From the sequence record PZ050807.1: DNA of 45,190 nucleotides. One strand, written 5' to 3'. A program made the translations under genes and the position numbers. Position 1 is the stretch's first letter. Each line of letters begins with the position of its first letter. The DNA is from a phage. Below, piece by piece: positions 12,223 to 44,570 of the stretch. Below the pieces are notes generated by a model. The model was not told where the DNA came from and ran no database searches. It saw nothing but the letters and a program-made list of their open reading frames with translations.

Positions 12223-13644
12223 GCCCAAATCCTCGTCGCTTGCTTCTTGCCATTCCGGGCGCGGGTCGTCAACTGGTGCCAGGACCGGTTTCGCCGGCGC
12301 ACGCGTGATTTTATCTTGCAGTTTCGCCCACACTTTCGGTTTCTCATCCTTCAGCACCTTCTCGGCATCAGTAGGGCTGATTAATGATTCCTTGTACATC
12401 AGGTCGCGCTTGATCCGGGCCGTTGTGAATACGGCGATAACTTCGCTTTCATCCTTCCACTTACGCGCACCTTCACGACCAGCTACCAGCTTCAGGCCCA
12501 GCGCTTCGCCGTCACCGGCTAACACTGCTTTGAATACGGCAGCCTCGATCGCTTTGATGTGCTGGCGCATGGTTTCCAGGCCGTCGTAAGCCTTCTTCAG
12601 TTCTTCCGTGGTCATAGCACCGGCTGGCGCTTCTTTCTTTCCACGCTTCGCACGTCGGGCAGCTTTCCGAGCTTCGAGGTCCATGTTCTGGTCGTGGTTT
12701 TTGCATTCTTCCTCGGCGGCAATGCTTACATCGTCACCCAGGTCTTCGTCGGTTGCCGTTGGTGGCGTTATTGTGTCGATGGCGGCTTTAGCGCGGGCAC
12801 TACATTGGTCCGCAAATCGACACCACTGACACGCATCGGCGCTCGGACGGAAGTCTGCACGGGTGAGATTCTTCTTACCCTTAGCGAGGGCATCCAGGGC
12901 GGCTACTGCGCGTTTTGCTGCGTACTTGGCGAAGATTTCCAGTGCTTCCACCGAAATATCCCACTCCGACGCCCCGCCGCAATACGGCTGGAATATGACC
13001 AGGCGCACGGTTGTTATGTCGTACATCTTTTGCAGCTTGCGCAGCAGTCCGAGCGCATACAGCATAAGCTGTTTGTTCTCTTTCGCCTCGACCTTATGGC
13101 GTCCGGTCTTCAGGTCGCCCACAATGAGCATGTACGTGCCGTCGGTCTTCTTCATCACCATAACCATATCGGCAGTACCGAAGGTCTTGATCGCTTCGCC
13201 GTCAATCTCGTAGCCTTTGTGCAGGACGCGAGTCAGATCCGCGCGCATCTCAAGCTGGACAAACTCGGCAACTTCAAGCAGCGGTCGCCAGTGGTCGATG
13301 TACGCGTCGCACTGTTTCACCATGTCGTCAGTTACCAGGATGGCGTCCTTAGGTGCTTTCGCTGCCGCTTTAACTGGTCCTTTACCCTGATTTTCGACGT
13401 AGCACCCTTTATATGTCTTCGCCGTGATGTGGTCTTCGCCTGCAATGATGCGGTTTAGTACCACTTCAGATACGGTGTGCATACTCGTACCGTTGATCGC
13501 GGCTTGCCCGGATTCGTTCGGAATACCTTTCTCCACCACCAGGGCGGCGGGACACCCCATCCATTTTTTAGCGCCGGATGGGCCAAGTAATGAGTGTTCT
13601 GTATTACTGCCGGATTGCGTCTTGCGCTTCGCTTTGATAGCCAT
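12214..13644 (-). CDS. PD-(D/E)XK exonuclease, Cas4/RecB-like with Cys cluster (recombination exonuclease)
   Basis: Nuclease core TADMVMV...LIVGDLKTG...QLMLYAL; cysteines in CQWCRFADQC; long charged C-terminal extension. Confidence 0.7.
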   Translation of the reverse strand: MAIKAKRKTQSGSNTEHSLLGPSGAKKWMGCPAALVVEKGIPNESGQAAINGTSMHTVSEVVLNRIIAGEDHITAKTYKGCYVENQGKGPVKAAAKAPKDAILVTDDMVKQCDAYIDHWRPLLEVAEFVQLEMRADLTRVLHKGYEIDGEAIKTFGTADMVMVMKKTDGTYMLIVGDLKTGRHKVEAKENKQLMLYALGLLRKLQKMYDITTVRLVIFQPYCGGASEWDISVEALEIFAKYAAKRAVAALDALAKGKKNLTRADFRPSADACQWCRFADQCSARAKAAIDTITPPTATDEDLGDDVSIAAEEECKNHDQNMDLEARKAARRAKRGKKEAPAGAMTTEELKKAYDGLETMRQHIKAIEAAVFKAVLAGDGEALGLKLVAGREGARKWKDESEVIAVFTTARIKRDLMYKESLISPTDAEKVLKDEKPKVWAKLQDKITRAPAKPVLAPVDDPRPEWQEASDEDLGDE

Positions 13645-13832
13645 TATTCGACCCTCGTAAATTGAGCAATATAATAATCATGCTTAATTCCTGCTTTCGC
13701 CGCGGCGTTATTCATTGTCGCGGCCAGTTCTTTCGCTTGCATCCAGCAACAATTCCAGTTCTGATTCATAATTATTTCCGGCTGTTCGTCGCCGGTGTTA
13801 CGGCAGCGAAATAAAACAAAGAAAATACTCAT
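13644..13832 (-). CDS. Hypothetical small protein, 62 aa
   Basis: TAATG overlaps at both ends imply translational coupling. Confidence 0.35.
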   Translation of the reverse strand: MSIFFVLFRCRNTGDEQPEIIMNQNWNCCWMQAKELAATMNNAAAKAGIKHDYYIAQFTRVE

Positions 13833-19164: not shown

Positions 19165-19301
19165 GCGCAACCATCCGTGATATGCTTATGCACAACCGTT
19201 TTGAGATAGGCGGTCGGGTGTTTCGCAATTACTTCGTGGCGCGTGCCTGGGCGCGCCATATTGGCAAACCGGAGAGTGAAATTAAATGCTACACGATGTG
19301 A
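19161..19301 (+). CDS. Hypothetical small protein, 46 aa
   Basis: ATGA overlap with the upstream gene; weak. Confidence 0.3.
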   Translation: MSATIRDMLMHNRFEIGGRVFRNYFVARAWARHIGKPESEIKCYTM

Positions 19302-19573
19302 TGTTTTGGTTTGGTATATTCTGCGCAATCTTGCTGGTTGGCGCTGTCACCCTGGTTATTGCAGTCTGGTTTATATGGCCTGCCGTTGAGGCCGTGAGCA
19401 TTACCCGCATGACCTTCGCCTACTACAAGAAACACGGCATCACGCAACATTCCAGCAGGCTTAGGGTGTGGTGGCTGTGGTATCGCGATATGCTCGGAGG
19501 CAGGCGGTTCGAGGCCATCAGGTCACACGGTTGGGAATGGCAAGGCGTAGGACGCTGGTCAATTTCAGAATAA
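19286..19573 (+). CDS. Small membrane protein, 95 aa
   Basis: N-terminal transmembrane helix FWFGIFCAILLVGAVTLVIAVWFIW. Confidence 0.45.
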   Translation: MLHDVMFWFGIFCAILLVGAVTLVIAVWFIWPAVEAVSITRMTFAYYKKHGITQHSSRLRVWWLWYRDMLGGRRFEAIRSHGWEWQGVGRWSISE

Positions 19574-19593
19574 TTATGCAGTCGTGATATAGT

Positions 19594-19627
19594 CCCCAGT
19601 GAGGTTTAATCTTACTGGGGCTTTTTT
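19594..19627 (+). terminator. Intrinsic terminator immediately upstream of the holin gene
   Basis: Hairpin CCCCAGTGAGG-TTTAAT-CTTACTGGGG followed by CTTTTTT. Confidence 0.6.
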
Positions 19628-19930
19628 ATGGAAGTTTTCCACAAATTAGATGAATGGGTAATTATCGCCGCTGCCGGGGTGGCGGGTGGCTTCGTAGGTG
19701 CGCGTATGCACCCGGAAGCTGCACAAGGACCGGTAAACTTTGTGCTGTTCGTCGTCGTTGGCTTCCTGTGTGCTGTATTTGGTGCACCAGCCATCGCCGA
19801 ACTGACCGGCTTGACCAGTCAGCGCATGATCGCAGGTCTTGGATTCGTAACGGCAATCTTCTGGATGCCGATTGCGGCACGGATCCGAGAGCTAATCGCT
19901 AATGCCCGCTTTCCGGGAGGTGCCAAATGA
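19628..19930 (+). CDS. Holin candidate
   Basis: 100 aa with two to three transmembrane segments, directly upstream of the endolysin. Confidence 0.55.
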   Translation: MEVFHKLDEWVIIAAAGVAGGFVGARMHPEAAQGPVNFVLFVVVGFLCAVFGAPAIAELTGLTSQRMIAGLGFVTAIFWMPIAARIRELIANARFPGGAK

Positions 19931-20193
19931 TTTTCGGCGTCGATGTTTGTGCGTGGTTTGGCGTTATGTTCTTCCTCATCGTCGGCGTGTCGTCGCTGTA
20001 CAACGTCTACGCCGCATCCGTGAATGACGGCCTTGTTGGTCGTGTGCTCTATCTCTTAACGGCAGTCTTCTGCGTGGTCGGCTTGATGCAAACCGGGCAT
20101 GTGGAGAACGCCACTATCAACGCCATTTGCTGGCTGTTTGCATTGCGCACCCTGCGCAATGCTGTTTTGAAAGGTGTAAAACATGCAATTTAG
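19927..20193 (+). CDS. Second small membrane protein (holin or antiholin-like)
   Basis: 88 aa, hydrophobic; ATGA overlap with the holin. Confidence 0.4.
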   Translation: MIFGVDVCAWFGVMFFLIVGVSSLYNVYAASVNDGLVGRVLYLLTAVFCVVGLMQTGHVENATINAICWLFALRTLRNAVLKGVKHAI

Positions 20194-20668
20194 TGAGAAT
20201 GGTTTGCGGTTTACTGCCGCATGGGAGACGTTTAGCCCGGTGCCCTACTTCGCCACGAAGAAAGAGCAGGAGCAAGGTCTTTATACCTGGGGCTTCGGTC
20301 ATACGGGCACTAACCCGCCGCGCAGCATTACCCGCACTGAGGCAATGGAACTACTGCGCAAGGATATTGCCATTGCTGAGAAGTTTGTTCAGCGCGCAAT
20401 GCCGATCGGGGCGTTCAACCAGGCCCAGTACGACGCGCTTGTGGATCTGGTCTTCAACGTAGGGCCGCGTGCCATCGGGGCTAATACCGGAACTGGTCGT
20501 GCAGTTCGTGCCGGTGATATTCAGACGATCCGTGCTAAACTGCCTCAATTCCGTATGCAAGCCGGGGTTGTTGTCAAGGGTCTGGTGCGTCGCGCTAACG
20601 GACGCCTGGCACTATTCGACGGTAAGCAGTGGGACGTTGCCGAGCGTATCGGTCGTAATTCAGTTTAA
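20183..20668 (+). CDS. Endolysin, GH24 (T4-type) lysozyme
   Basis: ENGLRF...GLYTWGFGHTG and FNQAQYDALVDLVFNVG match the T4-lysozyme family pattern. Confidence 0.8.
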   Translation: MQFSENGLRFTAAWETFSPVPYFATKKEQEQGLYTWGFGHTGTNPPRSITRTEAMELLRKDIAIAEKFVQRAMPIGAFNQAQYDALVDLVFNVGPRAIGANTGTGRAVRAGDIQTIRAKLPQFRMQAGVVVKGLVRRANGRLALFDGKQWDVAERIGRNSV

Positions 20669-20677
20669 GGGGGAGAT

Positions 20678-21085
20678 ATGTTAAAAAGTATTCTTGATCA
20701 TAATTCGGACGCGCTTGACGCGTTGGCTAAAACGGACGACGCTGGCGCGCGTCGCATCATTGCAGACACCATCAGCCATGCCGGGGTGTTTGGTGCAAGC
20801 CTTCCGGGACCGAAGCCTGATGTGAAGGTGACAAGCGCAACGGTATCGGTAGAGCCAGAGGCGGTTAAAATCGGCACCCAGTCTAAGGCTACGGTGGCGG
20901 TGCAACCGGCAGGGGCAACCGATAAATCCGGCGTGTGGATTAGTGGGTCGCCAACCATCGCCACCGTTGACGCTTCTGGTAATATCGACGGCAAAACTCC
21001 AGGTTCTGTCGATATTATTTGGGTGGCTAAGGATGGAAGCGGGGTGTCGGGCCGAAAAACGGTAACTGTGTCAAACTCCGAGTAA
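20678..21085 (+). CDS. Bacterial Ig-like (Big_2) domain protein
   Basis: Pattern ATVAVQPAGATDKSGVWISGSPTIATVDASGNIDGKTPGSVDIIWVAKDGSGVSGRKTVTV is typical of Big_2 domains. Confidence 0.5.
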   Translation: MLKSILDHNSDALDALAKTDDAGARRIIADTISHAGVFGASLPGPKPDVKVTSATVSVEPEAVKIGTQSKATVAVQPAGATDKSGVWISGSPTIATVDASGNIDGKTPGSVDIIWVAKDGSGVSGRKTVTVSNSE

Positions 21086-21091
21086 AGATCA

Positions 21092-21118
21092 AGCCCGCAA
21101 CTATGGCGGGCTTTTTAT
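21092..21118 (+). terminator. Intrinsic terminator
   Basis: AGCCCGC-AACTAT-GGCGGGCT followed by TTTTT. Confidence 0.65.
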
Positions 21119-21203
21119 TGCTTGACCTGCAACCAATTAATAGCTCATACTTCTGTCGCCGTGGTATATTGATCGCGGTCAAACTGAATCAGGAAAATAT
21201 ACG

Positions 21204-22346
21204 ATGCACCCTCAAACCAAAATTACAGACGAGCAGTTGATCGCCGAAATCCAGGCGGGAACGACCGCGAAAGATATTGCTAAGAAATACGGGATTGCAC
21301 TGCGCAATGTTTATATGCGCAAAGCACGCTTATCTAAAAAGGGGATTGGGCACGGTAACGATGCCGTAATTCGTAAGCGTGTTGCCGATGGCTTCGGCGT
21401 GAAACGTGTATCCGCCCTGGTACGAGGCAATGGCGAAGAGGTCATGTCGTGGGTTATCACCGAGCAGGACAAAGAGCGCCAGCTTGAGGCGATGCGTGCA
21501 GTGCTGGACGGCATGAACAGCGAAATCACACCGGCAGCACCCGTAAGCGCGCCACCAGTCCCGATCCAGGCGCTGGACCTGCTAAACCTGTACACCGTGT
21601 CCGACTTCCACCTGGGGATGCTGGCATGGGGAGAAGAGACTGGCGAGGATTGGGATATGGCTATTGCCGAAGACCTGTTCTACCGCTGGTTTGTCGAAGC
21701 CTTTGCCCGCGCCCCGGATGCCGGAACAGGCGTGATTAACATCCTCGGTGATATGGCCCACTTTGACAGCCTGGATGCCGTTACCCCCGCAAGTGGTCAC
21801 GTCCTGGATGCCGATACCCGCTATCAGAAGCTGGTGCGCTACATGATTCGCATGGTCCGCCACGTTGTCGAACTGGCATTGCAGAAACACCACAAGGTTA
21901 AACTGCTAATCGTGCAGGGCAACCATGACGAAAGCGGTATGATCTGGCTGGCTGAGATGTTCGCTACGCTGTACGAGAACGAGCCGCGCGTTGAGGTGGA
22001 TACGTCGCCGGATGTCTATAAGATGGTCCAGCACGGTAAGACTACGCTGTTCTTCCATCACGGGCACAAGGCTAAATTCGACGCTATCGAGCCGGTCATG
22101 ATTTCGAAATTTCGTGAGGCGTTCGGATCCAGCCAGTACAGCTATGCTCACGTAGGCCACCTGCACCACCAGAAGATTATCGAATCGCGAAACATGATTG
22201 TTGAACAGCACCGCACGCTTGCCGCGAAGGATGCCTACGCCAGCCGAGGCGGTTGGATGAGCGGACGCAGTGCAAACGTGATAACCTATAGCGCGAACTA
22301 CGGTGAAGTAGCACGCTTAACCATTAGCCCGGAGATGTTGAAATGA
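21204..22346 (+). CDS. HTH-fused calcineurin-like metallophosphoesterase (phosphatase or Mre11/SbcD-like nuclease)
   Basis: Motifs DFH, GDMAHFD, GNHDE, FFHHGH and GHLHH; N-terminal HTH TAKDIAKKYGIALRNVYMRK. Confidence 0.6.
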   Translation: MHPQTKITDEQLIAEIQAGTTAKDIAKKYGIALRNVYMRKARLSKKGIGHGNDAVIRKRVADGFGVKRVSALVRGNGEEVMSWVITEQDKERQLEAMRAVLDGMNSEITPAAPVSAPPVPIQALDLLNLYTVSDFHLGMLAWGEETGEDWDMAIAEDLFYRWFVEAFARAPDAGTGVINILGDMAHFDSLDAVTPASGHVLDADTRYQKLVRYMIRMVRHVVELALQKHHKVKLLIVQGNHDESGMIWLAEMFATLYENEPRVEVDTSPDVYKMVQHGKTTLFFHHGHKAKFDAIEPVMISKFREAFGSSQYSYAHVGHLHHQKIIESRNMIVEQHRTLAAKDAYASRGGWMSGRSANVITYSANYGEVARLTISPEMLK

Positions 22347-22555
22347 TCAGACAAGTCTTCATGAGCACGCAGGCCGCACGCCTGACTGAATTACGCAAAC
22401 AACTGGAAGGACTGCGCCGATTCGAGCGCACAGCGGCAGCGGTAGGCATGAGTATGTCGGAACGGATCGAGATACTCACTCAAATTCGCCACACAGAGGG
22501 CGCAATCGAGGCAGTTAAGGCTATGCTAACCCGATACTACGGTCGACCCGTTTAA
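22343..22555 (+). CDS. Hypothetical protein, 70 aa
   Basis: ATGA overlap with the upstream gene. Confidence 0.45.
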   Translation: MIRQVFMSTQAARLTELRKQLEGLRRFERTAAAVGMSMSERIEILTQIRHTEGAIEAVKAMLTRYYGRPV

Positions 22556-22566
22556 TCTCACCACAG

Positions 22567-22589
22567 GCCCGCTTACGCGGGCTTTTTTG
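22567..22589 (+). terminator. Intrinsic terminator
   Basis: GCCCGC-TTAC-GCGGGC followed by TTTTTT. Confidence 0.65.
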
Positions 22590-22614
22590 TGTCTGCAATT
22601 CTCCCTGATATAAT
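22587..22614 (+). promoter_or_regulatory. Candidate promoter for the packaging/morphogenesis operon: TTGTGT-16 nt-TATAAT
   Basis: Consensus -10 TATAAT at 22609..22614. Confidence 0.45.
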
Positions 22615-22683
22615 CGTGACAGGTGGTTGGGCCACCTCCTATGTTGCCGATGGTCGGCGCATATGCATAAAGGGGTTATTATC

Positions 22684-23235
22684 ATGGCAGAAATCAAGGT
22701 AAAAGGCCGTCGTGCGAAGTTAGACGGGCGAGTCGCAGTCACTCCACGCCGCAAACCGGGCGAGCAAACCGAACACACCAATCTCGGACCTGAAATCGAG
22801 TACGGCAAACGCCGGAAAGGGGGCAAGTGTGGCCGTCCTACTGATTATCGGTCTGTTTATTGTCGCCAGTTGCGAGATTATTTTGCTTCAGCCGACGCAT
22901 GGCAAGTCAACTACTCGGACAAGGGTGCGGCGCAAGTTATCCCACGTAACAAGATGCCAACACTTGGGCGCTTTGCGGCGGAAATCGGGGTAGGCGTAGC
23001 ATGTCTGTATCGCTGGGCGCGTAAGCACGAAGAATTTGCCGAGGCGATGGCGGACGCGATGGAACTGCAAAAGACCTTTCTCATGGAAGCGGGTGGCGTG
23101 ACTATTGCTGCGGGATTTGCTGCATTCCTGCTTAAAGCCAACCACGGCGTACGCGACGATGCACCGCTGGAAGATGACGACGATGATAACGGCGACGTCA
23201 CTGTGGAGCCAGCCGGTAAAGGGCAGGGCGAGTAA
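22684..23235 (+). CDS. Terminase small subunit
   Basis: Position upstream of TerL; HTH GRFAAEIGVGVACLYRWARKHEEF; acidic C-terminus; start at MAEIKVKG. Confidence 0.6.
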   Translation: MAEIKVKGRRAKLDGRVAVTPRRKPGEQTEHTNLGPEIEYGKRRKGGKCGRPTDYRSVYCRQLRDYFASADAWQVNYSDKGAAQVIPRNKMPTLGRFAAEIGVGVACLYRWARKHEEFAEAMADAMELQKTFLMEAGGVTIAAGFAAFLLKANHGVRDDAPLEDDDDDNGDVTVEPAGKGQGE

Positions 23236-24620
23236 TGCGTAACTACGCGGCAGAGCACCGCGCACTAGATCGCAAGCTGGCGAAACGCAACCGTCCGCCT
23301 AAACCTACCCGTGTAGCGCAAGCGGTCCGGCTATACCAGCCGGATTGCCTGCCGCACCAGGTAGAGCTACTCCGCGACACGAAGACCAAAATCCTCGGCC
23401 TGTGTTCCGGCTTCGGCGGTGGAAAGTCATGGTCGGCGGCCCGTAAAGTCGTCCAGCTTCTGTGCCTGAATCCTGGCTATGACGGCATTGTGACCGAGCC
23501 GACAATCCCGCTTCTGGTTAAAATCATGTACCCGGAGCTAGAGAAGTCTTTCGACGAGGCCGGTTTGCGCTGGAAGTTCAATAAACAGGATAAGATTTAT
23601 AACGTACTGGTGAAGGGTAAATGGACCCGCGTAATTTGCGAGTCAATGGAGAACTACACCCGCTTGATCGGTATTAACGCCGCGTGGATTGTTGCCGATG
23701 AGTTCGACACCACGAAGCAGGACGTCGCTATGGCGGCGTATCACAAGCTACTCGGTCGTTTGCGTGCCGGTAATGTGCGTCAGTTCGTCATCGTATCCAC
23801 GCCAGAAGGCTTCCGGGCGATGTATCAGATTTTCGAAGTGGAGAAGGATAGCCAGAAACGTCTGATCCGGGCGAAGACTACCGACAACTTCCACTTACCG
23901 CCAGACTTCATCGACACGCTGCGAAGCCAGTACCCGGCAAACCTGATTGACGCATACCTGGACGGTAAATTCGTCAACCTTACATCAGGTGCGGTGTACA
24001 AGATGTTCGACCGTGAGCAGAACGCCAGTACCGAGGAAGTGCAGCCAGAAGACACGCTAATCATTGGCATGGACTTTAACGTCACGAAGATGGCGGCTGT
24101 GGTGTACGTCAGACGGCAGCGAGTCACGGAGGCGAAGGAGTTCCGCGACGAAATCCACGCAGTCGATGAGTTTGTTGACTTGTTCGATACGCCTGCAATG
24201 ATTGACGAGATTGAGGCACGCTACCCCGATCATTGTGCTGCCGGTAAGGTGGTGATTTACCCGGATAGCAGTGGCAAGTCCCGTAAGACGGTCAACGCGT
24301 CCTCTTCGGATATTGCACAACTGGAAGACGCAGGCTTTGAGGTGGAATATGACAGCGTTAACCCGCCGGTAAAAGACCGCCTGATTGCCATGAATACGAT
24401 GATGTGTAACTCGAAGGGTGTGCGTCAGTATTTTGTGAATATGGCTAAATGCCCTACACTGGCAAAATGTTTAGAACAGCAGGTTTACGACCTGAAGAAA
24501 GGCGAGCCGGATAAAACGGCCGGTGTGGACCACATGAATGACGCCGCGGGCTATCCGATTGTGCACCTGTTCCCTGTGATTCGACCGATTGCCGTTGTTC
24601 CGACCGTCGATTTCTACTAA
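23235..24620 (+). CDS. Terminase large subunit
   Basis: ATPase Walker A LCSGFGGGKSW and Walker B WIVADEFD; 461 aa; followed by portal. Confidence 0.85.
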   Translation: MRNYAAEHRALDRKLAKRNRPPKPTRVAQAVRLYQPDCLPHQVELLRDTKTKILGLCSGFGGGKSWSAARKVVQLLCLNPGYDGIVTEPTIPLLVKIMYPELEKSFDEAGLRWKFNKQDKIYNVLVKGKWTRVICESMENYTRLIGINAAWIVADEFDTTKQDVAMAAYHKLLGRLRAGNVRQFVIVSTPEGFRAMYQIFEVEKDSQKRLIRAKTTDNFHLPPDFIDTLRSQYPANLIDAYLDGKFVNLTSGAVYKMFDREQNASTEEVQPEDTLIIGMDFNVTKMAAVVYVRRQRVTEAKEFRDEIHAVDEFVDLFDTPAMIDEIEARYPDHCAAGKVVIYPDSSGKSRKTVNASSSDIAQLEDAGFEVEYDSVNPPVKDRLIAMNTMMCNSKGVRQYFVNMAKCPTLAKCLEQQVYDLKKGEPDKTAGVDHMNDAAGYPIVHLFPVIRPIAVVPTVDFY

Positions 24621-24632
24621 GAGGATAATTTA

Positions 24633-26153
24633 ATGTCTGTAAACGTGGACAACCAACACCCACTCTACGCGCGCATTGCGCCTGAGTGGAAGATGATCCG
24701 TGACTGCGTTGCAGGTGAAAGGGCCGTTAAAGCGTGCGGCCCGCTTTACTTGCCGTTTCCGTCCAGTGGCGACAACACCGACCCAAAAGCGAAGGCCCGC
24801 TACAAGGCATACAAGCAACGTGCGGTCTTCCTGAACGCCACCGCTCGCACGCTTAACGCGTTGCTGGGTATCGCCTTTGCGAAGCCAGTCACCATGAAGC
24901 TGTCCGGTAAAATCGCCGAGCTTATCGACGACGTAGACGGCAGCGGAATGCCATTGCCGCAGTTACTGCGTGGAGCGATGTCGGAAGTGCTGCAATCCGG
25001 GCGAGCCGGTTTTATGGTGGACTATGACCGCCAGGCGCATTTTGACGAACTGGGTAACGTCGTGCCGCAAACCGCCGCAGAGATGGCGATGCACCGTCCG
25101 CTCATTAAGCTGTACACGGCAGAGCAGATCATCAACTGGCGACAGACCCACGGGCAGGACACCTTGATCGTGCTGAAAGAGTGCGACGAAATCAGCACCG
25201 AAGATACCGACGATTTCGCAAACCACGAAGTTACGATATGGACCGAGCTACGAATGGTCAACGGCAAAGCACACGCCCGCCGCTGGTTTTTCAACGCAGA
25301 CACGTCCGAAGTGCAGATGGATTTACCGCGTGGCTTTACCAAAACCGACCTGGTGCCGCTGGTAGATTCTGCCGGTCGCGCACTGGATAGCCTGCCGTTT
25401 TGCTGGTGTGGTGCAGTCGATAACAACGCCACCCCGGACGCCGCGCCGCTGGCTGATATTGCGTCCATCAACATTAAGCACTACAACGCCGAAGCGGACG
25501 TTGCTGAGATTGCGCACATCGTAGGCCAGCCGACGCTAATCACTACCGGTCTGACCCAATCATGGGCCGATAAAAACCTGAAGGGTGGTATCGCGCTCGG
25601 TGCGACGAAGGGTGTTATCTTGGGCCAGAACATGGACGCCAAACTGCTTCAGGCCGAAGAACGCAACCTGTCCGTGGCATTGTGTGAACGCCGTGAGAAA
25701 CAGATGGCTAAACTCGGTGCGGCGCTGGTGGAGAAGGGGAGCGCACCTAAAACGGCAACAGAAGCGGCCTACGACGCGCAGACTGATAACAGTATCTTGT
25801 CGCTGATTGCCGGTAACGTTGAGAAGGCATTCAACAAGGCGCTTCAGATCGTGCAGTTGTTCACTGGTGACACCGCCGAGCAGACTGTAACCCTGAACAA
25901 GTTCTACACCGAAATCACGGTGGATGCGCAGTTGATGACCGCAATGATGAGCGGTGTACAGACTGGGACGGTCCGTCTTTCTGATTTCATCAAATGGATG
26001 ATGGCACAGGGTGTAATCGACGATTCGCAGACTGTAGACCAGGTGGAAGACGACTTGCGGAATCAGAATCCGTTGCCGCAAATGTCACCGGATGCGGTAA
26101 ACTTGGACGATGACGAATCGGACAAGGTAGATGACGATGCCGAGGAAAATTAA
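24633..26153 (+). CDS. Portal protein
   Basis: 506 aa ORF directly after TerL with acidic C-terminus; synteny. Confidence 0.7.
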   Translation: MSVNVDNQHPLYARIAPEWKMIRDCVAGERAVKACGPLYLPFPSSGDNTDPKAKARYKAYKQRAVFLNATARTLNALLGIAFAKPVTMKLSGKIAELIDDVDGSGMPLPQLLRGAMSEVLQSGRAGFMVDYDRQAHFDELGNVVPQTAAEMAMHRPLIKLYTAEQIINWRQTHGQDTLIVLKECDEISTEDTDDFANHEVTIWTELRMVNGKAHARRWFFNADTSEVQMDLPRGFTKTDLVPLVDSAGRALDSLPFCWCGAVDNNATPDAAPLADIASINIKHYNAEADVAEIAHIVGQPTLITTGLTQSWADKNLKGGIALGATKGVILGQNMDAKLLQAEERNLSVALCERREKQMAKLGAALVEKGSAPKTATEAAYDAQTDNSILSLIAGNVEKAFNKALQIVQLFTGDTAEQTVTLNKFYTEITVDAQLMTAMMSGVQTGTVRLSDFIKWMMAQGVIDDSQTVDQVEDDLRNQNPLPQMSPDAVNLDDDESDKVDDDAEEN

Positions 26154-27240
26154 CCAACGACTGGCGGATCGCATGATTCGCCGTCACATCTTCACCCAGC
26201 GCCTGAGCAATGAGCAGGCGCGTAAAGTGCTGGCAATGTGGCAAAAATTCCGTCCTACGTTACTGGGTAAGCTGACCGAATTACTTGAGGGCAAGAAGTC
26301 AATGAGCAATAAGGCGCTTACCACTCTGCTAACCCAAATCGACAAAACGGTTAAGACCGAACTGCGCGACGAGTTTAAAGTGCTGGCTGAAGGTCTGGCG
26401 GAGTTTGCCGATACCGAGGCTGAATATCTGACCAACACATTAACGGCAGCACTGCAACCTGCGCTTTCAGTCCCTGCCGTTGAGGTGGTTGGTGTAGTGA
26501 CCGGTGCGCAGATTGCAGCGACGGCTATGAAAAATCCATTCCAGGGCAACACGCTTATGCAATGGCCTGATTCTCTGTCAGAATGGACCAGAACGCAGAT
26601 CAGCAATCAGGTGCGCGCCGGATTTATCCAGGGCAAACCTACTATGCAAATTATTGCGGACGTCAAGCGCGCGTTGGGCGGTCGTAGCGCGCAGGCCATT
26701 TCAAGCGTGGTCAAGTCCGCAGTCAACCACTATGCGGCGACCGCACGCGAATTAATGGTAAAAGCAAATGATGATATTCTCGACGGTCGCCAGTGGCTTT
26801 CTACACTGGATACTCACACCTCAACGCTCTGTCAGTTACGCGATCGCCTGTTTTATCCGGTTGATGTTACCCCCGAAACAAAAGGGAAACGGGACGGGAA
26901 AGTGGTGGCTGGATCACAGTATGGCGCTGGTCCGGGCAAGCTACATTATTGTTGCCGTTCTACCGAGACGTGGAAAGTCAAGGGTATGGAAGATTGGCCC
27001 AGTGGTAAGCGTCCGGCACTGAAGGCCGAAGCGGGTAAACTGCTAAGTGAGCAGGTCAGTGCTAAGACGGACTTCTTCTCCTGGGTACAGCGCCAGCCGC
27101 GGCATATCCTTGAGGAATTATACGGAGTGCAGCGCGCGGACCAGATCTTGCGGGGCGTGAAAGTTCCGACCATGTTTAACGACGCGGGCGAGCTTATGAC
27201 GATTCAACAACTGAAAAATAAGGGGTTATGGCGTGATTAA
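26131..27240 (+). CDS. Head morphogenesis (minor head) protein
   Basis: Synteny (portal-adjacent), 369 aa. Confidence 0.5.
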   Translation: MTMPRKINQRLADRMIRRHIFTQRLSNEQARKVLAMWQKFRPTLLGKLTELLEGKKSMSNKALTTLLTQIDKTVKTELRDEFKVLAEGLAEFADTEAEYLTNTLTAALQPALSVPAVEVVGVVTGAQIAATAMKNPFQGNTLMQWPDSLSEWTRTQISNQVRAGFIQGKPTMQIIADVKRALGGRSAQAISSVVKSAVNHYAATARELMVKANDDILDGRQWLSTLDTHTSTLCQLRDRLFYPVDVTPETKGKRDGKVVAGSQYGAGPGKLHYCCRSTETWKVKGMEDWPSGKRPALKAEAGKLLSEQVSAKTDFFSWVQRQPRHILEELYGVQRADQILRGVKVPTMFNDAGELMTIQQLKNKGLWRD

Positions 27241-27541
27241 ATACGCAGCAGTCGGATTGATTCTCGGCCTTGTAATTGGGTTCTGGCAAGGTGACAACTA
27301 TCGTGCTGGCGTGGTGGCGGAGGCGGCGCAGGAAGCGCAAGCCAAAGCCCAACGGCAGCAAACTAAGGTAATCCATGAGTCGGTACAGAAAGAGCAGGCC
27401 CGCGAAGTGGAGTTCCGCACAGTTGAGAAAGAGGTGATTAAATATGTCACGCGTCCTGATCGCGATAATTGTAAGTTTGATGCTGACCGCGTGCGGATCA
27501 AGCAACGTGCCGTTGATGCCGCTAACGGAATCAGCAATTAA
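27233..27541 (+). CDS. i-spanin (Rz-like)
   Basis: N-terminal transmembrane helix MIKYAAVGLILGLVIGFW followed by a charged coiled coil; contains the start of the overlapping o-spanin. Confidence 0.55.
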   Translation: MIKYAAVGLILGLVIGFWQGDNYRAGVVAEAAQEAQAKAQRQQTKVIHESVQKEQAREVEFRTVEKEVIKYVTRPDRDNCKFDADRVRIKQRAVDAANGISN

Positions 27542-27674
27542 GCCGCCGTGTAAGTTTGAGTCGCCATCGGAAGATCCGGACGAAGATTTAGCGATTGATG
27601 TGCGAAATATGAAATGCGGGGCGGAGTTAAGGGCACAAGTGCTGGATTTGCAGAAATTAATTAAGGGGCCGTAA
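27444..27674 (+). CDS. o-spanin (Rz1-like outer-membrane lipoprotein)
   Basis: Signal peptide with lipobox LTAC-G, Pro-rich; starts inside Rz in the +1 frame (overlapped architecture). Confidence 0.55.
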   Translation: MSRVLIAIIVSLMLTACGSSNVPLMPLTESAIKPPCKFESPSEDPDEDLAIDVRNMKCGAELRAQVLDLQKLIKGP

Positions 27675-27687
27675 TGGCCCCTTTCTA
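27664..27687. terminator. Bidirectional intrinsic terminator
   Basis: AGGGGCC-GTAAT-GGCCCCT followed by TTCTATT; same stem as the terminators at 2743 and 43357. Confidence 0.65.
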
Positions 27688-28449
27688 TTAGCGCGGAATA
27701 CCGCAGATTTCGTTTAGTGTCTTCACGTCAAGCGCTACTGCCGTTGACTTCTTCTCTTCCTGCGGGATGAACTGTTTCACTTCAGGCCATGCCTTAATAA
27801 GTTTGGTGTCTGTAGTGTACTTATTCAGAGTACCCATAACTGACAATTTAAACTCATCGTATTTAGCACGTAAATCGCGGCGCGCCTTGTCGTTCTTATC
27901 CAGACGTTTGCAAAATTCATGCTCTGCCGGGTAATCTGCACGACCGCGAGGCTTGTAGATCGGCACTTGCTCACCTTCCGCGTTAATTTCCACCAGCGCC
28001 GTAAGTAGCGCAGTTTCAAACCCAGGTACGATTTCGCCAATGTCCGGGGCCATCGAGTTATTGTAGCGGTCTTCCCAGTAGCCTCGGTGACAGCGGCTGC
28101 TGTAGTTATCACCGCTCAATGACAGTGTGCGGATGTTACCACCCATGTTGACTTCGAACGTTGCATCGTACACAGCACCAATGCCGTGGGGCATGTCCTT
28201 GTTATGGCTGAAGGTTGCACGGCTGGCGTACACGCTTATGCTAAACATGCCGTTATTTGTGTCTTGATAGCTGCGCATCATTTTCTGCAACCCAACGAAG
28301 CTGGTAACACCTTTCGGCATCTGATCCAGAGTGATAGCCAGCGCCAGGTCGCGCGATTCGGTCATTAACTTTTTGGCCTGCTTCGTGATTTCGTGGCCTG
28401 CCAGGATGTTAGCCAGGATTTGCTTTTTAATGTCTTTAGTCAGTCTCAT
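27688..28449 (-). CDS. Hypothetical protein, 253 aa; inverted single-gene cassette inside the head module
   Basis: Start at MRLTKDIK (ATG 28449, RBS AGGAAACAACA); own early-type promoter and terminator. Confidence 0.5.
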   Translation of the reverse strand: MRLTKDIKKQILANILAGHEITKQAKKLMTESRDLALAITLDQMPKGVTSFVGLQKMMRSYQDTNNGMFSISVYASRATFSHNKDMPHGIGAVYDATFEVNMGGNIRTLSLSGDNYSSRCHRGYWEDRYNNSMAPDIGEIVPGFETALLTALVEINAEGEQVPIYKPRGRADYPAEHEFCKRLDKNDKARRDLRAKYDEFKLSVMGTLNKYTTDTKLIKAWPEVKQFIPQEEKKSTAVALDVKTLNEICGIPR

Positions 28450-28479: not shown

Positions 28480-28508
28480 AATATATTGCAACCAATTAGC
28501 CAATGCAA
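28480..28508 (-). promoter_or_regulatory. Early-type promoter (minus strand): -35 TTGCAT, 17 nt with ATTGGTTGCAA, -10 TATATT
   Basis: Minus strand: TTGCAT(28508..28503)-17 nt-TATATT(28485..28480). Confidence 0.5.
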
Positions 28509-28515
28509 GCAAATT

Positions 28516-28544
28516 TTGTGATTATTTTTATCACTGATAATATT
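28516..28544 (+). promoter_or_regulatory. Candidate promoter for the scaffold/capsid genes: TTGTGA-17 nt-TAATAT
   Basis: Hexamer match by eye. Confidence 0.4.
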
Positions 28545-28598
28545 AAGGGCGTGAAGTCGAGCGGGTGGCCCGCTCTGCCACAATCCCTGGGGGATGTT

Positions 28599-29303
28599 AT
28601 GAAACTGACTAAAGCAGAATATGACGCGTTGCCTGAAGGCATGAAAGCATTGTTTGTTGCCGATGGTGACGGGTACAAGGCGACGTTTATGACCGCCGAA
28701 GAAGTACAGGCCGAGATCAAAGGTCTGAAGGATAACAACGCGAAGCTGGTAGGCGAGAAAAAGGCAGAAGCCGAACGCCGTGCCGAAGCGGAGCGACTCG
28801 CTAAAGAGAAAGAGGAAGCCGCAGCGCGCAAGAACGGCGACCTTGAAGCGATCGATAAGTCCTGGCAGGACAAGTTTACTAAATACGATGCGGATACGAA
28901 GGGCAAAATCGAAGCCTACCGCAAACAGATTCACGATCTTACCATCGGCAGCACTGCCAAAGACCTGGCATCAAAGCTGTTCGGTAAGAACGCTGGCATT
29001 ATGCAACGCCACGTCATGGACCGCCTTGCGCTGGAAGAAGGCGAAGACGGCAGTCTGAAAGTGCGCGTATTGCAGGACGGCAAACCATCCGCACTGACTA
29101 TGGAAGAACTGGAGAAAGAGTTCCGTAGTAACGAAGATTTCGCGTCCGTCCTGGCGGGTACGCCTGCCGGTGGTGCGCCGAGCAAACCGACCCATGTAAT
29201 CGACGATCCGAAATCTAAGATTCAGATGGGTCATAGCTTCGGCATCACTGACTTGACCAAACAGGCCAGCGATATTATCGCCAAACTGGGCGACGACGAG
29301 TAA
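28599..29303 (+). CDS. Scaffolding protein candidate
   Basis: Charged coiled coil (AEAERRAEAERLAKEKEEAAARK), immediately upstream of the major capsid gene. Confidence 0.5.
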   Translation: MKLTKAEYDALPEGMKALFVADGDGYKATFMTAEEVQAEIKGLKDNNAKLVGEKKAEAERRAEAERLAKEKEEAAARKNGDLEAIDKSWQDKFTKYDADTKGKIEAYRKQIHDLTIGSTAKDLASKLFGKNAGIMQRHVMDRLALEEGEDGSLKVRVLQDGKPSALTMEELEKEFRSNEDFASVLAGTPAGGAPSKPTHVIDDPKSKIQMGHSFGITDLTKQASDIIAKLGDDE

Positions 29304-43356: not shown

Positions 43357-43380
43357 AGGGGCCGTTTGGCCCCTTTCTTA
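43357..43380. terminator. Bidirectional intrinsic terminator
   Basis: AGGGGCC-GTTT-GGCCCCT followed by TTCTT; same stem as the terminators at 2743 and 27664. Confidence 0.65.
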
Positions 43381-44343
43381 ATACATATTAGGAAGGACAA
43401 TCAGCGGTGTTGGTACGACAACATTGCGGTTAGGCATCTGGAATTGCTGCCGTGAATAGTTGCCAATGACGCGGTTTTTCGCTGCACCAACGACGCTACC
43501 CGCCATGCGTATCCCGTTCATGCGTACGTGGTTATAACCGCTATTGTTTTCAATAAGCGCGCCCGTGTATGAAAGCTGAATAAGGCTGTTACCGATATTC
43601 TGCCACCCTGCGCTAAGGTCAACCGTCCCGTTAAACACAAACGGCTTATTGACGGTGGAGAATGTAACCTGGCCTGCGTTGTTGGTCATCGTGATACCGG
43701 TTCCGGGGCTTGGCGGTGTGTTATTGAATATAACCAATTCCATGTCAACGGCAGCACCCACATCATCAATCCCGCCGTAAGCCGCATTGCGGACGATAAT
43801 ACTGCCTCCATCGAAGCCAACCGACACGTTAGGGTCATCCCAACGGGCGAACGGAACACCTCCGACCGGCAGCGGCATACTTCCGTTCACATGGACGCGC
43901 TGCGCGTAGCGACAGGTCATCAGCCGAGCGACGTTTGATATGGCGGTGAAGTCCGTCGAGTTAGCCACCAGAAGCCCAGCATTACGCGACCCCACCGGCA
44001 GCACTTCCATAATCGTTCCCGCCCAGGTTGGAAGCCCGCTATAAGCGCCCAGCGCGTCAGCACCGTGCAGCGTAATTCCGCCATCACCATTTCGAGATAT
44101 TGACGTTACAAACATCGGATCGGGTATTACCAGTGTTTGGTCGAACACTTCCACCACTTCAACGGGATTAGTTAGCACGACTATAAGCTGCGATCCAGGC
44201 GTTAGCGGAGTATTGACTGTTAGCGTCTTGTCAGATTGGCAGCGCTGATTAAAATTGGTACAAAAAGACGGAGCACGAAGCCCCGCCGTAATTTCCATTC
44301 TTGGACGCCCATCGTTGTATTCGATAAGGATACCTGCACCCAT
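43378..44343 (-). CDS. Beta-rich hypothetical protein, 321 aa; inverted cassette between J and the tail-fibre genes
   Basis: G/N/T/V-rich with no catalytic motif; RBS GGGAG; co-transcribed with the upstream lipoprotein gene. Confidence 0.5.
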   Translation of the reverse strand: MGAGILIEYNDGRPRMEITAGLRAPSFCTNFNQRCQSDKTLTVNTPLTPGSQLIVVLTNPVEVVEVFDQTLVIPDPMFVTSISRNGDGGITLHGADALGAYSGLPTWAGTIMEVLPVGSRNAGLLVANSTDFTAISNVARLMTCRYAQRVHVNGSMPLPVGGVPFARWDDPNVSVGFDGGSIIVRNAAYGGIDDVGAAVDMELVIFNNTPPSPGTGITMTNNAGQVTFSTVNKPFVFNGTVDLSAGWQNIGNSLIQLSYTGALIENNSGYNHVRMNGIRMAGSVVGAAKNRVIGNYSRQQFQMPNRNVVVPTPLIVLPNMY

Positions 44344-44345
44344 AA

Positions 44346-44570
44346 TTACCACTCCCGTGATTTAACTGATACCGTACCAGAGAAGTTACCGTCTGAATCT
44401 GCCGCCAAACCGGTGAATCGCATGTCAATGTCTCCGGCAGCGACCTTTTGCCCGTCAACATAACGCAACATGCAGCTTCCCGCAACGTAGGTAACGCAAT
44501 CGCCATTATGACGCTCAACAGCACAACCAGACAGCATAGCAACGACTAAAATACTTAATAAAGTTTTCAT
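44346..44570 (-). CDS. Small lipoprotein, 74 aa (candidate superinfection-exclusion factor, Llp/Cor-like by context)
   Basis: Signal peptide MKTLLSILVVAMLSGC with canonical lipobox LSG-C; strong RBS AAAGGAGA; early-type promoter upstream. Confidence 0.55.
   Translation of the reverse strand: MKTLLSILVVAMLSGCAVERHNGDCVTYVAGSCMLRYVDGQKVAAGDIDMRFTGLAADSDGNFSGTVSVKSREW

What the first reader, a model, noticed from the sequence alone, without database searches (positions are those of the whole stretch)
27233..27674. Spanin pair (Rz/Rz1, overlapped) displaced about 6.5 kb from the holin/endolysin cassette
The holin, second membrane protein and GH24 endolysin are at 19628..20668. The only spanin-like pair is at 27233..27674, inside the morphogenesis operon between the head morphogenesis and scaffold genes. 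The o-spanin ORF (lipobox LTAC-G, Pro-rich) starts inside the i-spanin gene in the +1 frame and extends past it. A split lysis cassette implies the spanins are transcribed with late structural genes.
Basis: partly seen in the sequence, partly recalled or inferred. Interest (0 to 1): 0.55.

Follow-up and report, generated by a model that had tools for sequence, protein, structure and literature searches.

The report
Known spanin pair, apart from lysis genes
The two overlapping genes are a real outer-membrane-disrupting spanin pair of a Dhillonvirus (HK578-like) coliphage, but this pair and its position 6.5 kb from the holin and endolysin genes are already catalogued for this phage group and its relatives, so the finding is correct but ordinary.

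Summary
ORF 27233..27541 (+, GTG, 102 aa) has an N-terminal transmembrane helix. ORF 27444..27674 (+, ATG, 76 aa) has the lipobox LTAC followed by G. It starts in the +1 frame inside the first ORF, overlaps it by 98 nt and runs past its stop. They match PHROG Rz-like spanin families at 1e-30 and 2e-22. The pair keeps the same register in all 17 Dhillonvirus sequences compared (window included), and sequence diversity falls by about half in the overlap. It is the only spanin-like pair in the window. The holins and endolysin (19628..20668) lie 6,565 nt upstream on the same strand.

The window is a Dhillonvirus, 100% identical over the 1.2 kb compared to LM40P1 and 99.5% to phage Ioannina. Kongari et al. 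2018 already place the HK578, JL1, SSL-2009a, SO-1 and EP23 spanins in the overlapped "Jersey" family. The order head morphogenesis, spanins, scaffold, with the holins and endolysin elsewhere, is shared with Jerseyvirus, with a Kagunavirus-like phage and with a Klebsiella Guernseyvirinae phage. A published genome announcement notes the split explicitly for the related phage Schulenberg.

One refinement: the pair is the last two genes of the terS, terL, portal, head-morphogenesis block, and its start overlaps the upstream stop. A conserved hairpin and a convergent gene follow. Co-transcription with packaging and head genes is inferred, not shown.

Verdict: already known; low interest.

The parts
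27233..27541 (+). i-spanin (Rz-like): 102 aa, GTG start, N-terminal transmembrane helix (about residues 4-20), helical periplasmic domain, single periplasmic Cys80
   Evidence: ORF. phrog_2536 Rz-like spanin 1e-30. Hydropathy. Single-sequence AF2 model has helices 5-72 and 84-97, pLDDT 66.6. Conserved in 17 of 17 Dhillonvirus sequences, window included. 35-42% identical to Guernseyvirinae i-spanins.
27444..27674 (+). o-spanin (Rz1-like): 76 aa outer-membrane lipoprotein precursor. Lipobox LTAC is at nt 27483..27494, the lipidated Cys17 codon at 27492..27494, Gly at +2. Further Cys at 36 and 58.
   Evidence: ORF. phrog_5672 2e-22 and phrog_1267 1e-9, both Rz-like spanin. Lipobox scans. L[TS]AC and all three Cys conserved in 17 of 17 sequences.
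27444..27541 (+). 98-nt dual-coding overlap, with the o-spanin in the +1 frame of the i-spanin
   Evidence: Mean pairwise diversity is 0.067 in the overlap against 0.123 and 0.116 in the single-coding parts. Third-position diversity falls from 0.23 and 0.20 to 0.10 and 0.07.
27220..27240 (+). Junction with the head-morphogenesis gene: Shine-Dalgarno-like AAGGGG (27220..27225), i-spanin GTG (27233) lying 8 nt inside the end of the upstream gene (stop at 27238..27240). This suggests translational coupling.
   Evidence: The junction is conserved in all 17 sequences.
27429..27436 (+). Shine-Dalgarno-like AAGAGGTG upstream of the o-spanin ATG
   Evidence: AAGAGG is conserved in all 17 sequences.
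27663..27683 (.). G+C-rich hairpin (8 bp stem) whose 5' arm is made of the last o-spanin codons and the stop. It is a terminator-like element between the convergent o-spanin and Nmad5 genes.
   Evidence: Called on the minus strand. Fold of -16.1 kcal/mol. Present in all 17 sequences with paired changes (AAGGGGCC/GGCCCCTT versus CGGGGGCC/GGCCCCC), and followed by a better T-run in most relatives.
26131..27240 (+). Head-morphogenesis (SPP1 gp7 / Mu F-like) gene directly upstream. The preceding terS (ORF 22627..23235; the terminase match begins at residue 23), terL (23235..24620) and portal (24633..26153) complete the presumed transcription unit.
   Evidence: phrog_241 1e-111. phrog_3064, phrog_2/10250 and phrog_145.
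19628..20668 (+). The rest of the lysis system: two holin-family membrane proteins (19628..19930 and 19927..20193) and a soluble GH24-type endolysin (20183..20668)
   Evidence: phrog_2359 and phrog_2508 holins, PF00959 at 3e-23, phrog_7 endolysin.
21091..21113 (+). Terminator-like hairpin with a T-run after the lysis genes and the Ig-like ORF
   Evidence: -14.3 kcal/mol, z -2.45.
22565..22584 (+). Terminator-like hairpin with a T-run just upstream of terS, followed by a perfect TATAAT at 22609..22614
   Evidence: -16.5 kcal/mol, z -3.2. Sequence shown.

Best explanation
This is the two-component spanin of a Dhillonvirus (HK578-like siphophage). It belongs to the overlapped 'Jersey' spanin family. 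The 102-aa i-spanin is anchored in the inner membrane by its N-terminal helix and projects a mostly helical domain into the periplasm. The 76-aa o-spanin is exported, lipidated on Cys17 and sorted to the outer membrane, because it has Gly rather than Asp at +2. By analogy with lambda Rz/Rz1, the two bind through their C-termini, form disulfide-linked complexes spanning the periplasm and are held in check by the peptidoglycan mesh. Once the holin releases the endolysin and the wall is degraded, they disrupt the outer membrane, the last step of lysis. Spanin action is gated after translation by the state of the cell wall, so the genes only need to be expressed late. That explains how they can sit 6.5 kb from the holin and endolysin genes. 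Here they are the last two genes of the terS, terL, portal, head-morphogenesis block. They are probably translationally coupled to the head-morphogenesis gene and are followed by a conserved terminator-like hairpin. Shown here: the ORFs, the membrane and lipoprotein signals, homology, conservation, dual-coding constraint and synteny. Inferred: topology, complex formation, lytic function and co-transcription with packaging and head genes.
For: ORFs, frame and overlap. PHROG Rz-like spanin hits at 1e-30 and 2e-22, with the neighbouring genes identified. Hydrophobic N-terminus, LTAC lipobox, and Cys at i-80 and o-17/36/58. Only spanin-like pair in the window. 17 of 17 Dhillonvirus sequences (window included) keep the starts, the frame, L[TS]AC and the Cys residues. 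Diversity is halved and third-position freedom lost in the overlap. Helix, linker, helix model: matching the short EP23-to-SO-1 subfamily in Kongari 2018 (PMC6139136). HK578, JL1, SSL-2009a, SO-1 and EP23 are listed in the Jersey i- and o-spanin families. Homology to the pairs in Jerseyvirus Ent2, Bas70 and Klebsiella VLCpiS11a. Same gene order there, with the holins and endolysin far away in Ent2. GenBank records of BMA1, StarDew, Over9000 and JLBYU60 already carry spanin labels at this position. The holin/endolysin cassette lies 5.1-7.4 kb upstream on the same strand in all 11 sequences with enough flank, window included. Terminator-like hairpins and the coupled start.
Against: No experiment exists for this pair, and I found none for a Jersey-family spanin in the papers I read. 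Pfam and NCBIfam give no significant match, so family assignment rests on PHROGs, on tblastn and on the published classification. The structure model is single-sequence and of low confidence (pLDDT 66.6). Promoter-like matches in the region are no more frequent than in shuffled sequence. In the window itself the hairpin after the o-spanin has a poor T-run on the + strand. The transcription-unit boundaries are therefore not established.
Confidence: 0.9

Rival explanations
1. The split is positional only. The holins, endolysin, packaging genes and spanins are all read as one long late transcript on the + strand, so the spanins are co-regulated with the holin and endolysin after all.
For: The genes called from 19628 to 27674 all lie on the + strand with short gaps. 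Intrinsic terminators in phage late operons are often read through. A strong hairpin immediately upstream of the holin (19594..19620) hints that antitermination may operate in this region.
Against: Two hairpins with T-runs lie between the lysis genes and terS (21091..21113 and 22565..22584). A perfect TATAAT follows the second. The interval between endolysin and terS gains and loses genes among relatives, which fits a boundary between units.
Confidence: 0.25
2. The pair is not a spanin. It is some other small membrane protein and lipoprotein, for example a superinfection-exclusion or head-assembly accessory pair, that happens to sit in the head module.
For: The location is among head genes rather than lysis genes. 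Pfam and NCBIfam give no significant match. There is no experimental test.
Against: Every sequence-level spanin criterion is met. The hits are to spanin PHROGs only. The family was curated as spanins (PMC6139136). No other candidate for outer-membrane disruption exists in the window. The other lipoprotein, 44346..44570, lies downstream of the tail-tip gene with a large membrane protein and has a different family.
Confidence: 0.04
3. The o-spanin ORF is a chance overprint, and only the i-ORF is a gene.
For: Several GenBank records call only one of the two ORFs or a truncated o-ORF.
Against: The full-length o-ORF, with its ATG, Shine-Dalgarno-like sequence, lipobox and three Cys, is intact in 17 of 17 sequences at 68-100% identity. 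Downstream of the overlap it shows third-position-biased variation in its own frame, 0.201 against 0.041 at position 2. Its homologues in Guernseyvirinae also carry lipoboxes.
Confidence: 0.01

Closest known systems
Jersey-family overlapped spanins, short subfamily EP23/HK578/JL1/SSL-2009a/SO-1 (Kongari et al. 2018, PMC6139136)
   Same: Same genus (Dhillonvirus) and same overlapped +1 architecture. The i-spanin is short with two helices and a linker, and the conserved Cys residues are present. In the Dhillonvirus sequences compared here, i-spanin identity is 70-98% and o-spanin identity 68-100%, with the same position after the head-morphogenesis gene.
   Different: No difference in kind. This lineage (LM40P1, Ioannina, L006) has a 102-aa i-spanin with a 98-nt overlap, whereas most relatives have 109 aa and a 119-nt overlap. 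It is about 25% diverged in protein sequence.
Guernseyvirinae spanins (Jerseyvirus Ent2 gp07/gp08, Kagunavirus-like Bas70 and Golestan ORF7/8, Schulenberg)
   Same: Homologous i- and o-spanins at 35-48% identity, with shared motifs and lipoboxes. Jerseyvirus SeF1 has the same PHROG families for both spanins and both holins. The gene order is the same: holin, holin, endolysin, then terminase, portal, head morphogenesis, spanins, scaffold. The separation is stated in print for Schulenberg (PMC6763661).
   Different: The i-spanins are longer (128 aa). A Hoc-like decoration gene lies between head morphogenesis and the spanins. There is no reverse-strand Nmad5 gene after the pair.
Lambda Rz/Rz1
   Same: The same two-component logic: a type II inner-membrane protein and an outer-membrane lipoprotein encoded in the +1 frame of the same DNA, with periplasmic Cys residues.
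   Different: Lambda Rz1 is wholly embedded in Rz, and the pair is contiguous with S and R in one cassette. No sequence similarity was detected here. The present o-spanin has a C-terminal segment (GAELRAQVLDLQKLIKG) that may be helical; its secondary structure was not predicted here.
T4 PseT.3/PseT.2
   Same: An accepted precedent for spanin genes lying away from the holin and endolysin genes (stated in PMC6139136).
   Different: The T4 genes are of the separated architecture, and all T4 lysis genes are dispersed. There is no homology.

Membership tests
Two-component spanin (i-spanin/o-spanin) | i-spanin has a single N-terminal transmembrane domain (type II, N-in/C-out) | tested here: met
   The Kyte-Doolittle maximum is at residues 1-17 (2.07). 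It is the only hydrophobic segment, and the rest of the protein is 30% charged. Orientation is inferred.
Two-component spanin (i-spanin/o-spanin) | The periplasmic domain of the i-spanin is mainly alpha-helical, with two helices and a linker | tested here: met
   The AF2 single-sequence model has helices 5-72 and 84-97 with a linker at 73-83 that contains Cys80. Confidence is low (pLDDT 66.6). This agrees with the description of the short subfamily in PMC6139136.
Two-component spanin (i-spanin/o-spanin) | o-spanin has a lipoprotein signal peptide with a lipobox and no Asp at +2 (outer-membrane sorting) | tested here: met
   M-S-R, a hydrophobic stretch, then LTAC followed by G and S. L[TS]AC followed by G is conserved in 17 of 17 sequences. 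SignalP and LipoP were not available, so pattern and hydropathy were used.
Two-component spanin (i-spanin/o-spanin) | The o-spanin gene is embedded in, overlaps, or immediately follows the i-spanin gene | tested here: met
   +1 frame, 98-nt overlap, extending past the i-spanin stop, which is the 'overlapped' class.
Two-component spanin (i-spanin/o-spanin) | Periplasmic cysteines are available for intermolecular disulfides | tested here: met
   i-spanin Cys80 and o-spanin Cys36 and Cys58 are invariant in 17 sequences and aligned with Cys residues in Guernseyvirinae homologues. Disulfide formation itself was not tested.
Two-component spanin (i-spanin/o-spanin) | Required for outer-membrane disruption, or complements lambda Rz/Rz1 | not testable with these tools
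   This needs genetics. I found no such experiment for this family in the papers read.
Jersey spanin family (Kongari 2018) | Significant sequence similarity to family members for both partners | tested here: met
   tblastn against Ent2 gives 8e-11 (i) and 4e-14 (o); against VLCpiS11a it gives 1e-12 and 2e-15. phrog_2536 and phrog_5672 are the same PHROGs reported for Jerseyvirus SeF1. Genus mates HK578 and JL1 are listed as members.
Contiguous lambda-type lysis cassette (holin, endolysin, spanin) | Spanin genes lie adjacent to the holin and endolysin genes | tested here: not met
   There are 6,565 nt and seven ORFs with family matches between the endolysin stop (20668) and the i-spanin start (27233). 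The ORF after the endolysin is an Ig-like protein with no transmembrane segment or lipobox.

The most novel reading that the evidence does not exclude
The fixed placement of the spanin pair as the translationally coupled last cistrons of the packaging and head operon is conserved from Dhillonvirus to Guernseyvirinae. It could be a selected timing device rather than a historical accident: spanin supply would be tied to head-assembly gene expression and uncoupled from the separately terminated holin and endolysin unit. The spanins also show the faster divergence of the distant lysis genes (68-78% against 87-93% for their neighbours), which hints at co-evolution across the 6.5-kb gap.
Probability: 0.15. 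Interest if true: 0.3.

Novelty: already known. Interest (0 to 1): 0.1.

Why it matters
It matters little beyond annotation quality. The closest published genome (phage Ioannina, 99.5% identical) does not call the i-spanin and labels the o-spanin only as a lipoprotein attachment site, and its paper lists only the holins and lysozyme as lysis genes. Several other Dhillonvirus records leave one or both ORFs hypothetical or truncate the o-spanin so that it loses its signal peptide. Correct annotation gives these therapeutic-candidate phages a complete lysis system. The locus is also another clear example that spanin genes need not be linked to the holin and endolysin genes, which is already accepted from T4.

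Tried and rejected
1. I looked for a second spanin pair or a unimolecular spanin, with strict and relaxed lipobox scans of all six frames and a transmembrane scan of ORFs near the endolysin. These found only 44346..44570 (-), which is phrog_4281 of unknown function beside a 324-aa membrane protein and downstream of the tail-tip gene, so probably a superinfection-exclusion candidate. They also found an ORF at 13424..13660 on the strand opposite a long ORF. Both were rejected as spanins.

2. Pfam gave only sub-threshold hits for the i-spanin (DUF2570 at E = 0.02, DUF7904 at 0.075) and nothing for the o-spanin. NCBIfam gave nothing for either, so neither library was informative.

3. The sigma-70 promoter scan found 11 sites against 11.1 expected, no better than shuffled sequence, so no promoter claim rests on it.

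4. A literature search for Dhillonvirus transcriptomics surfaced no obvious transcript map among the top-ranked titles; none of those papers was opened for this purpose. One search failed on a term that was too short.

5. I did not run the expensive protein-database searches, a second structure job or fold searches. tblastn against 50,697 phage records already returned 610 records holding a homologue, and the published classification answers the question.

Full report
**What the window is.** The 1.2 kb around the finding is 100% identical to Dhillonvirus LM40P1 (OZ035811) and 99.5% identical to Escherichia phage Ioannina (OQ589852). It is about 80% identical to some 140 other Dhillonvirus (HK578-like) siphophage genomes. 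The window is a circular permutation of such a genome.

**Checking the observation.**
- The ORF list and the sequence show ORF 27233..27541 (+, GTG, 102 aa) and ORF 27444..27674 (+, ATG, 76 aa).
- The second ORF starts 211 nt into the first, so it is in the +1 frame. It overlaps the first by 98 nt and continues 133 nt past its stop. This is the "overlapped" spanin architecture.
- The 102-aa protein has one hydrophobic segment, at its extreme N-terminus (MIKYAAVGLILGLVIGF). The rest is 30% charged and contains one Cys, at position 80.
- The 76-aa protein begins MSRVLIAIIVSLMLTAC-GS. This is a basic N-terminus, a hydrophobic core, the lipobox LTAC at residues 14-17 and Gly at +2. It has further Cys residues at 36 and 58 and seven Pro.
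- Both starts have Shine-Dalgarno-like sequences: AAGGGG 7 nt upstream of the GTG and AAGAGGTG upstream of the ATG.
- The distance from endolysin stop to i-spanin start is 6,565 nt.

**Is it more than chance?**
- A scan of every start codon in all six frames for a lipoprotein signal found two ORFs in 45 kb: this one and 44346..44570 (-).
- A relaxed scan added only an ORF at 13424..13660 on the strand opposite a long ORF.
- Nothing with a transmembrane segment or a lipobox follows the endolysin. The next ORF (20678..21085) is an Ig-like Big_2 protein.
- The second lipoprotein belongs to phrog_4281 (unknown function). It sits next to a 324-aa membrane protein (phrog_1265) downstream of the tail-tip gene, the usual place for superinfection-exclusion genes. 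It is not in a spanin arrangement.

**Identity.**
- PHROGs assign the 102-aa protein to phrog_2536 "Rz-like spanin" (1e-30). The 76-aa protein goes to phrog_5672 (2e-22) and phrog_1267 (1e-9), also "Rz-like spanin".
- Pfam and NCBIfam have no significant model for either protein.
- A single-sequence AlphaFold2 model of the i-spanin is of low confidence (pLDDT 66.6). It shows a helix at 5-72, a linker at 73-83 that carries Cys80, and a helix at 84-97.

**Conservation.**
- I collected 16 other Dhillonvirus loci from IMG/VR and GenBank.
- All of them keep the GTG start overlapping the upstream stop, the ATG start, the +1 offset and the 76-aa o-spanin length. They also keep L[TS]AC-G, the single i-spanin Cys and all three o-spanin Cys residues.
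- The i-spanin is 102 aa in this lineage and in phage Sloth. It is 109 aa elsewhere, giving a 119-nt overlap.
- Where only one frame codes, variation is concentrated at third codon positions of that frame. The values are 0.229 against 0.047 at position 2 for the i-spanin, and 0.201 against 0.041 for the o-spanin.
- In the overlap, total diversity halves (0.067 against 0.123 and 0.116), and neither frame keeps a free third position. That is the signature of two real, overlapping genes.

**Surroundings and likely expression.**
- The genes called from 19628 to 27674 are all on the + strand. In order they are holin, holin, endolysin, Ig-like protein, a calcineurin-like exonuclease, a 70-aa protein, terS, terL, portal, the head-morphogenesis protein, i-spanin and o-spanin.
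- Hairpins followed by T-runs lie after the Ig-like ORF (21091..21113) and just before terS (22565..22584). A perfect TATAAT follows the second, at 22609..22614.
- The i-spanin GTG lies 8 nt inside the end of the head-morphogenesis gene.
- The last o-spanin codons and the stop form the 5' arm of an 8-bp G+C-rich hairpin (27663..27683, -16 kcal/mol).
- That hairpin is present in all 17 sequences, with paired changes in the stem. In most relatives a better T-run follows than in the window.
- Beyond the hairpin is a convergent reverse-strand Nmad5 gene (27688..28449, PF18757 at 1e-42), and then the scaffold gene.
- The spanins are therefore best read as the last two cistrons of a terS-to-head-morphogenesis unit rather than as lying in the middle of one continuous morphogenesis operon.
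- This reading is inferred. The promoter scan is at chance level, and a literature search for Dhillonvirus transcriptomics surfaced no obvious transcript map among the top-ranked titles.

**Mechanism.** This rests on established knowledge of lambda Rz/Rz1, as summarised in PMC6139136.
- The i-spanin is anchored in the inner membrane and the lipidated o-spanin in the outer membrane.
- They join through their C-termini into disulfide-linked complexes that thread the peptidoglycan.
- When the holin lets the endolysin destroy the wall, the complexes are freed and disrupt the outer membrane.
- Because activity is gated by the wall and not by transcription, linkage to the holin and endolysin genes is not required. 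This is why a displaced position is tolerated.

**Comparison with what is known.**
- Kongari et al. 2018 (PMC6139136) list HK578, JL1, SSL-2009a, SO-1 and EP23, all Dhillonvirus members, in the overlapped "Jersey" i-spanin and o-spanin families.
- The same paper describes "EP23 to SO-1" as a shorter subfamily with two helices and conserved Cys residues.
- tblastn finds homologues in 610 phage records, mostly Salmonella Jerseyvirus and Escherichia Kagunavirus or Dhillonvirus. Identity to the Ent2, Bas70 and VLCpiS11a pairs is 35-48%, with shared motifs and lipoboxes.
- In Jerseyvirus Ent2 the order is terminase, portal, head morphogenesis, decoration protein, spanins, scaffold. Its holin, holin and endolysin genes are at the other end of the record, about 7.5 kb upstream on the circular map.
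- Bas70 and VLCpiS11a show the same order around the spanins.
- In Golestan the holins and endolysin are ORF66-68 and the spanins ORF7/8 (PMC7203180).
- In Jerseyvirus SeF1 the same four PHROGs appear as Gp_009/010 (spanins) and Gp_063/064 (holins) (PMC9409062).
- For Dhillonvirus vB_EcoS_P78 the holins are genes 31 and 32, the endolysin 33 and the spanin 40 (PMC12677095).
- T4 is cited as the classic case of unlinked spanins.
- In all 11 Dhillonvirus sequences with enough flank (window included), the lysis genes lie 5.1-7.4 kb upstream of the spanins on the same strand. The variation comes from gain and loss of accessory genes between the endolysin and terS.

**Novelty and verdict.** Both the spanin pair and its separation from the holin and endolysin genes are already recorded for this genus and for the related Guernseyvirinae. 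The practical value lies in annotation. The Ioannina record and its paper omit the i-spanin and do not recognise the o-spanin as a lysis gene, and other records truncate or leave the ORFs unnamed. Interest is low.

**A minor unexplained point.** In this lineage both the spanins (68-78% identity) and the distant holin and endolysin genes (67-72%) are much more diverged from other Dhillonviruses than the packaging and head genes beside the spanins (87-93%). This could reflect faster evolution of envelope-interacting proteins or co-adaptation. It does not change the verdict.

Noticed in passing
window 27688..28449 (-) (longest ORF runs to 28512): A reverse-strand Nmad5 (nucleotide modification associated domain 5, PF18757 at 1e-42) gene is wedged between the spanins and the scaffold gene, convergent with the o-spanin. 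It is only 61-64% identical to other Dhillonvirus copies, was not detected in two loci (L008, L016), and is absent from this position in Guernseyvirinae.
   Followed up: partly
window 19564..19630: A strong hairpin (19594..19620, 12-bp stem, -19.6 kcal/mol, z -4.5) has a T-run that runs straight into the holin ATG at 19628, leaving no visible Shine-Dalgarno sequence. A promoter-like TTCAGA-18-TATAGT ends at 19593. This may be a terminator or antitermination control point for the lysis genes, or the holin start may be mis-set.
   Followed up: partly
window 19286..19573 (+): A 95-aa protein with two predicted transmembrane segments (phrog_2531, unknown function) lies just upstream of the hairpin and the holins. 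It is a third small membrane protein beside the lysis genes.
   Followed up: no
window 20678..21085 (+): The ORF directly after the endolysin, where a spanin might be expected, joins a conserved 49-aa N-terminus (phrog_11068) to a Big_2 Ig-like domain. In other Dhillonviruses only 42-64 aa align, or the Ig part is 40-51% identical, so this is a variable slot.
   Followed up: partly
window 20669..22660: The interval between the endolysin and terS is a gain-and-loss hotspot. The calcineurin-like exonuclease (21204..22346) and the 70-aa ORF (22343..22555) are each missing in some relatives.
   Followed up: partly
window 43378..44570 (-): The only other lipoprotein in the window is at 44346..44570 (lipobox LSGC, phrog_4281). 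It lies next to a 324-aa membrane protein (phrog_1265) downstream of the tail-tip J-like gene. These are likely superinfection-exclusion or receptor-masking genes, not spanins.
   Followed up: partly
window 28503..29303 (+): The scaffold gene probably starts at 28599 (Met33, MKLTKAEY...) rather than 28503. The PHROG match begins at residue 33, and BMA1 annotates 234 aa. This leaves a divergent intergenic region of about 150 nt between Nmad5 and the scaffold gene.
   Followed up: no
window 19628..20668 and 27233..27674 compared with loci L002, L007-L009, L013, L015-L017, L019: The holins, endolysin and spanins of this lineage are 67-78% identical to those of other Dhillonviruses. The terS, terL, portal, head-morphogenesis, scaffold and capsid genes around the spanins are 87-93% identical.
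   Followed up: partly
L001 (OQ589852, phage Ioannina) 4571..5012: The closest annotated genome does not call the i-spanin and names the o-spanin 'prokaryotic lipoprotein lipid attachment site'. Its paper lists only the holins and lysozyme under host lysis. BMA1 and Sloth annotate an o-ORF truncated to 52 aa, which lacks the signal peptide.
   Followed up: yes
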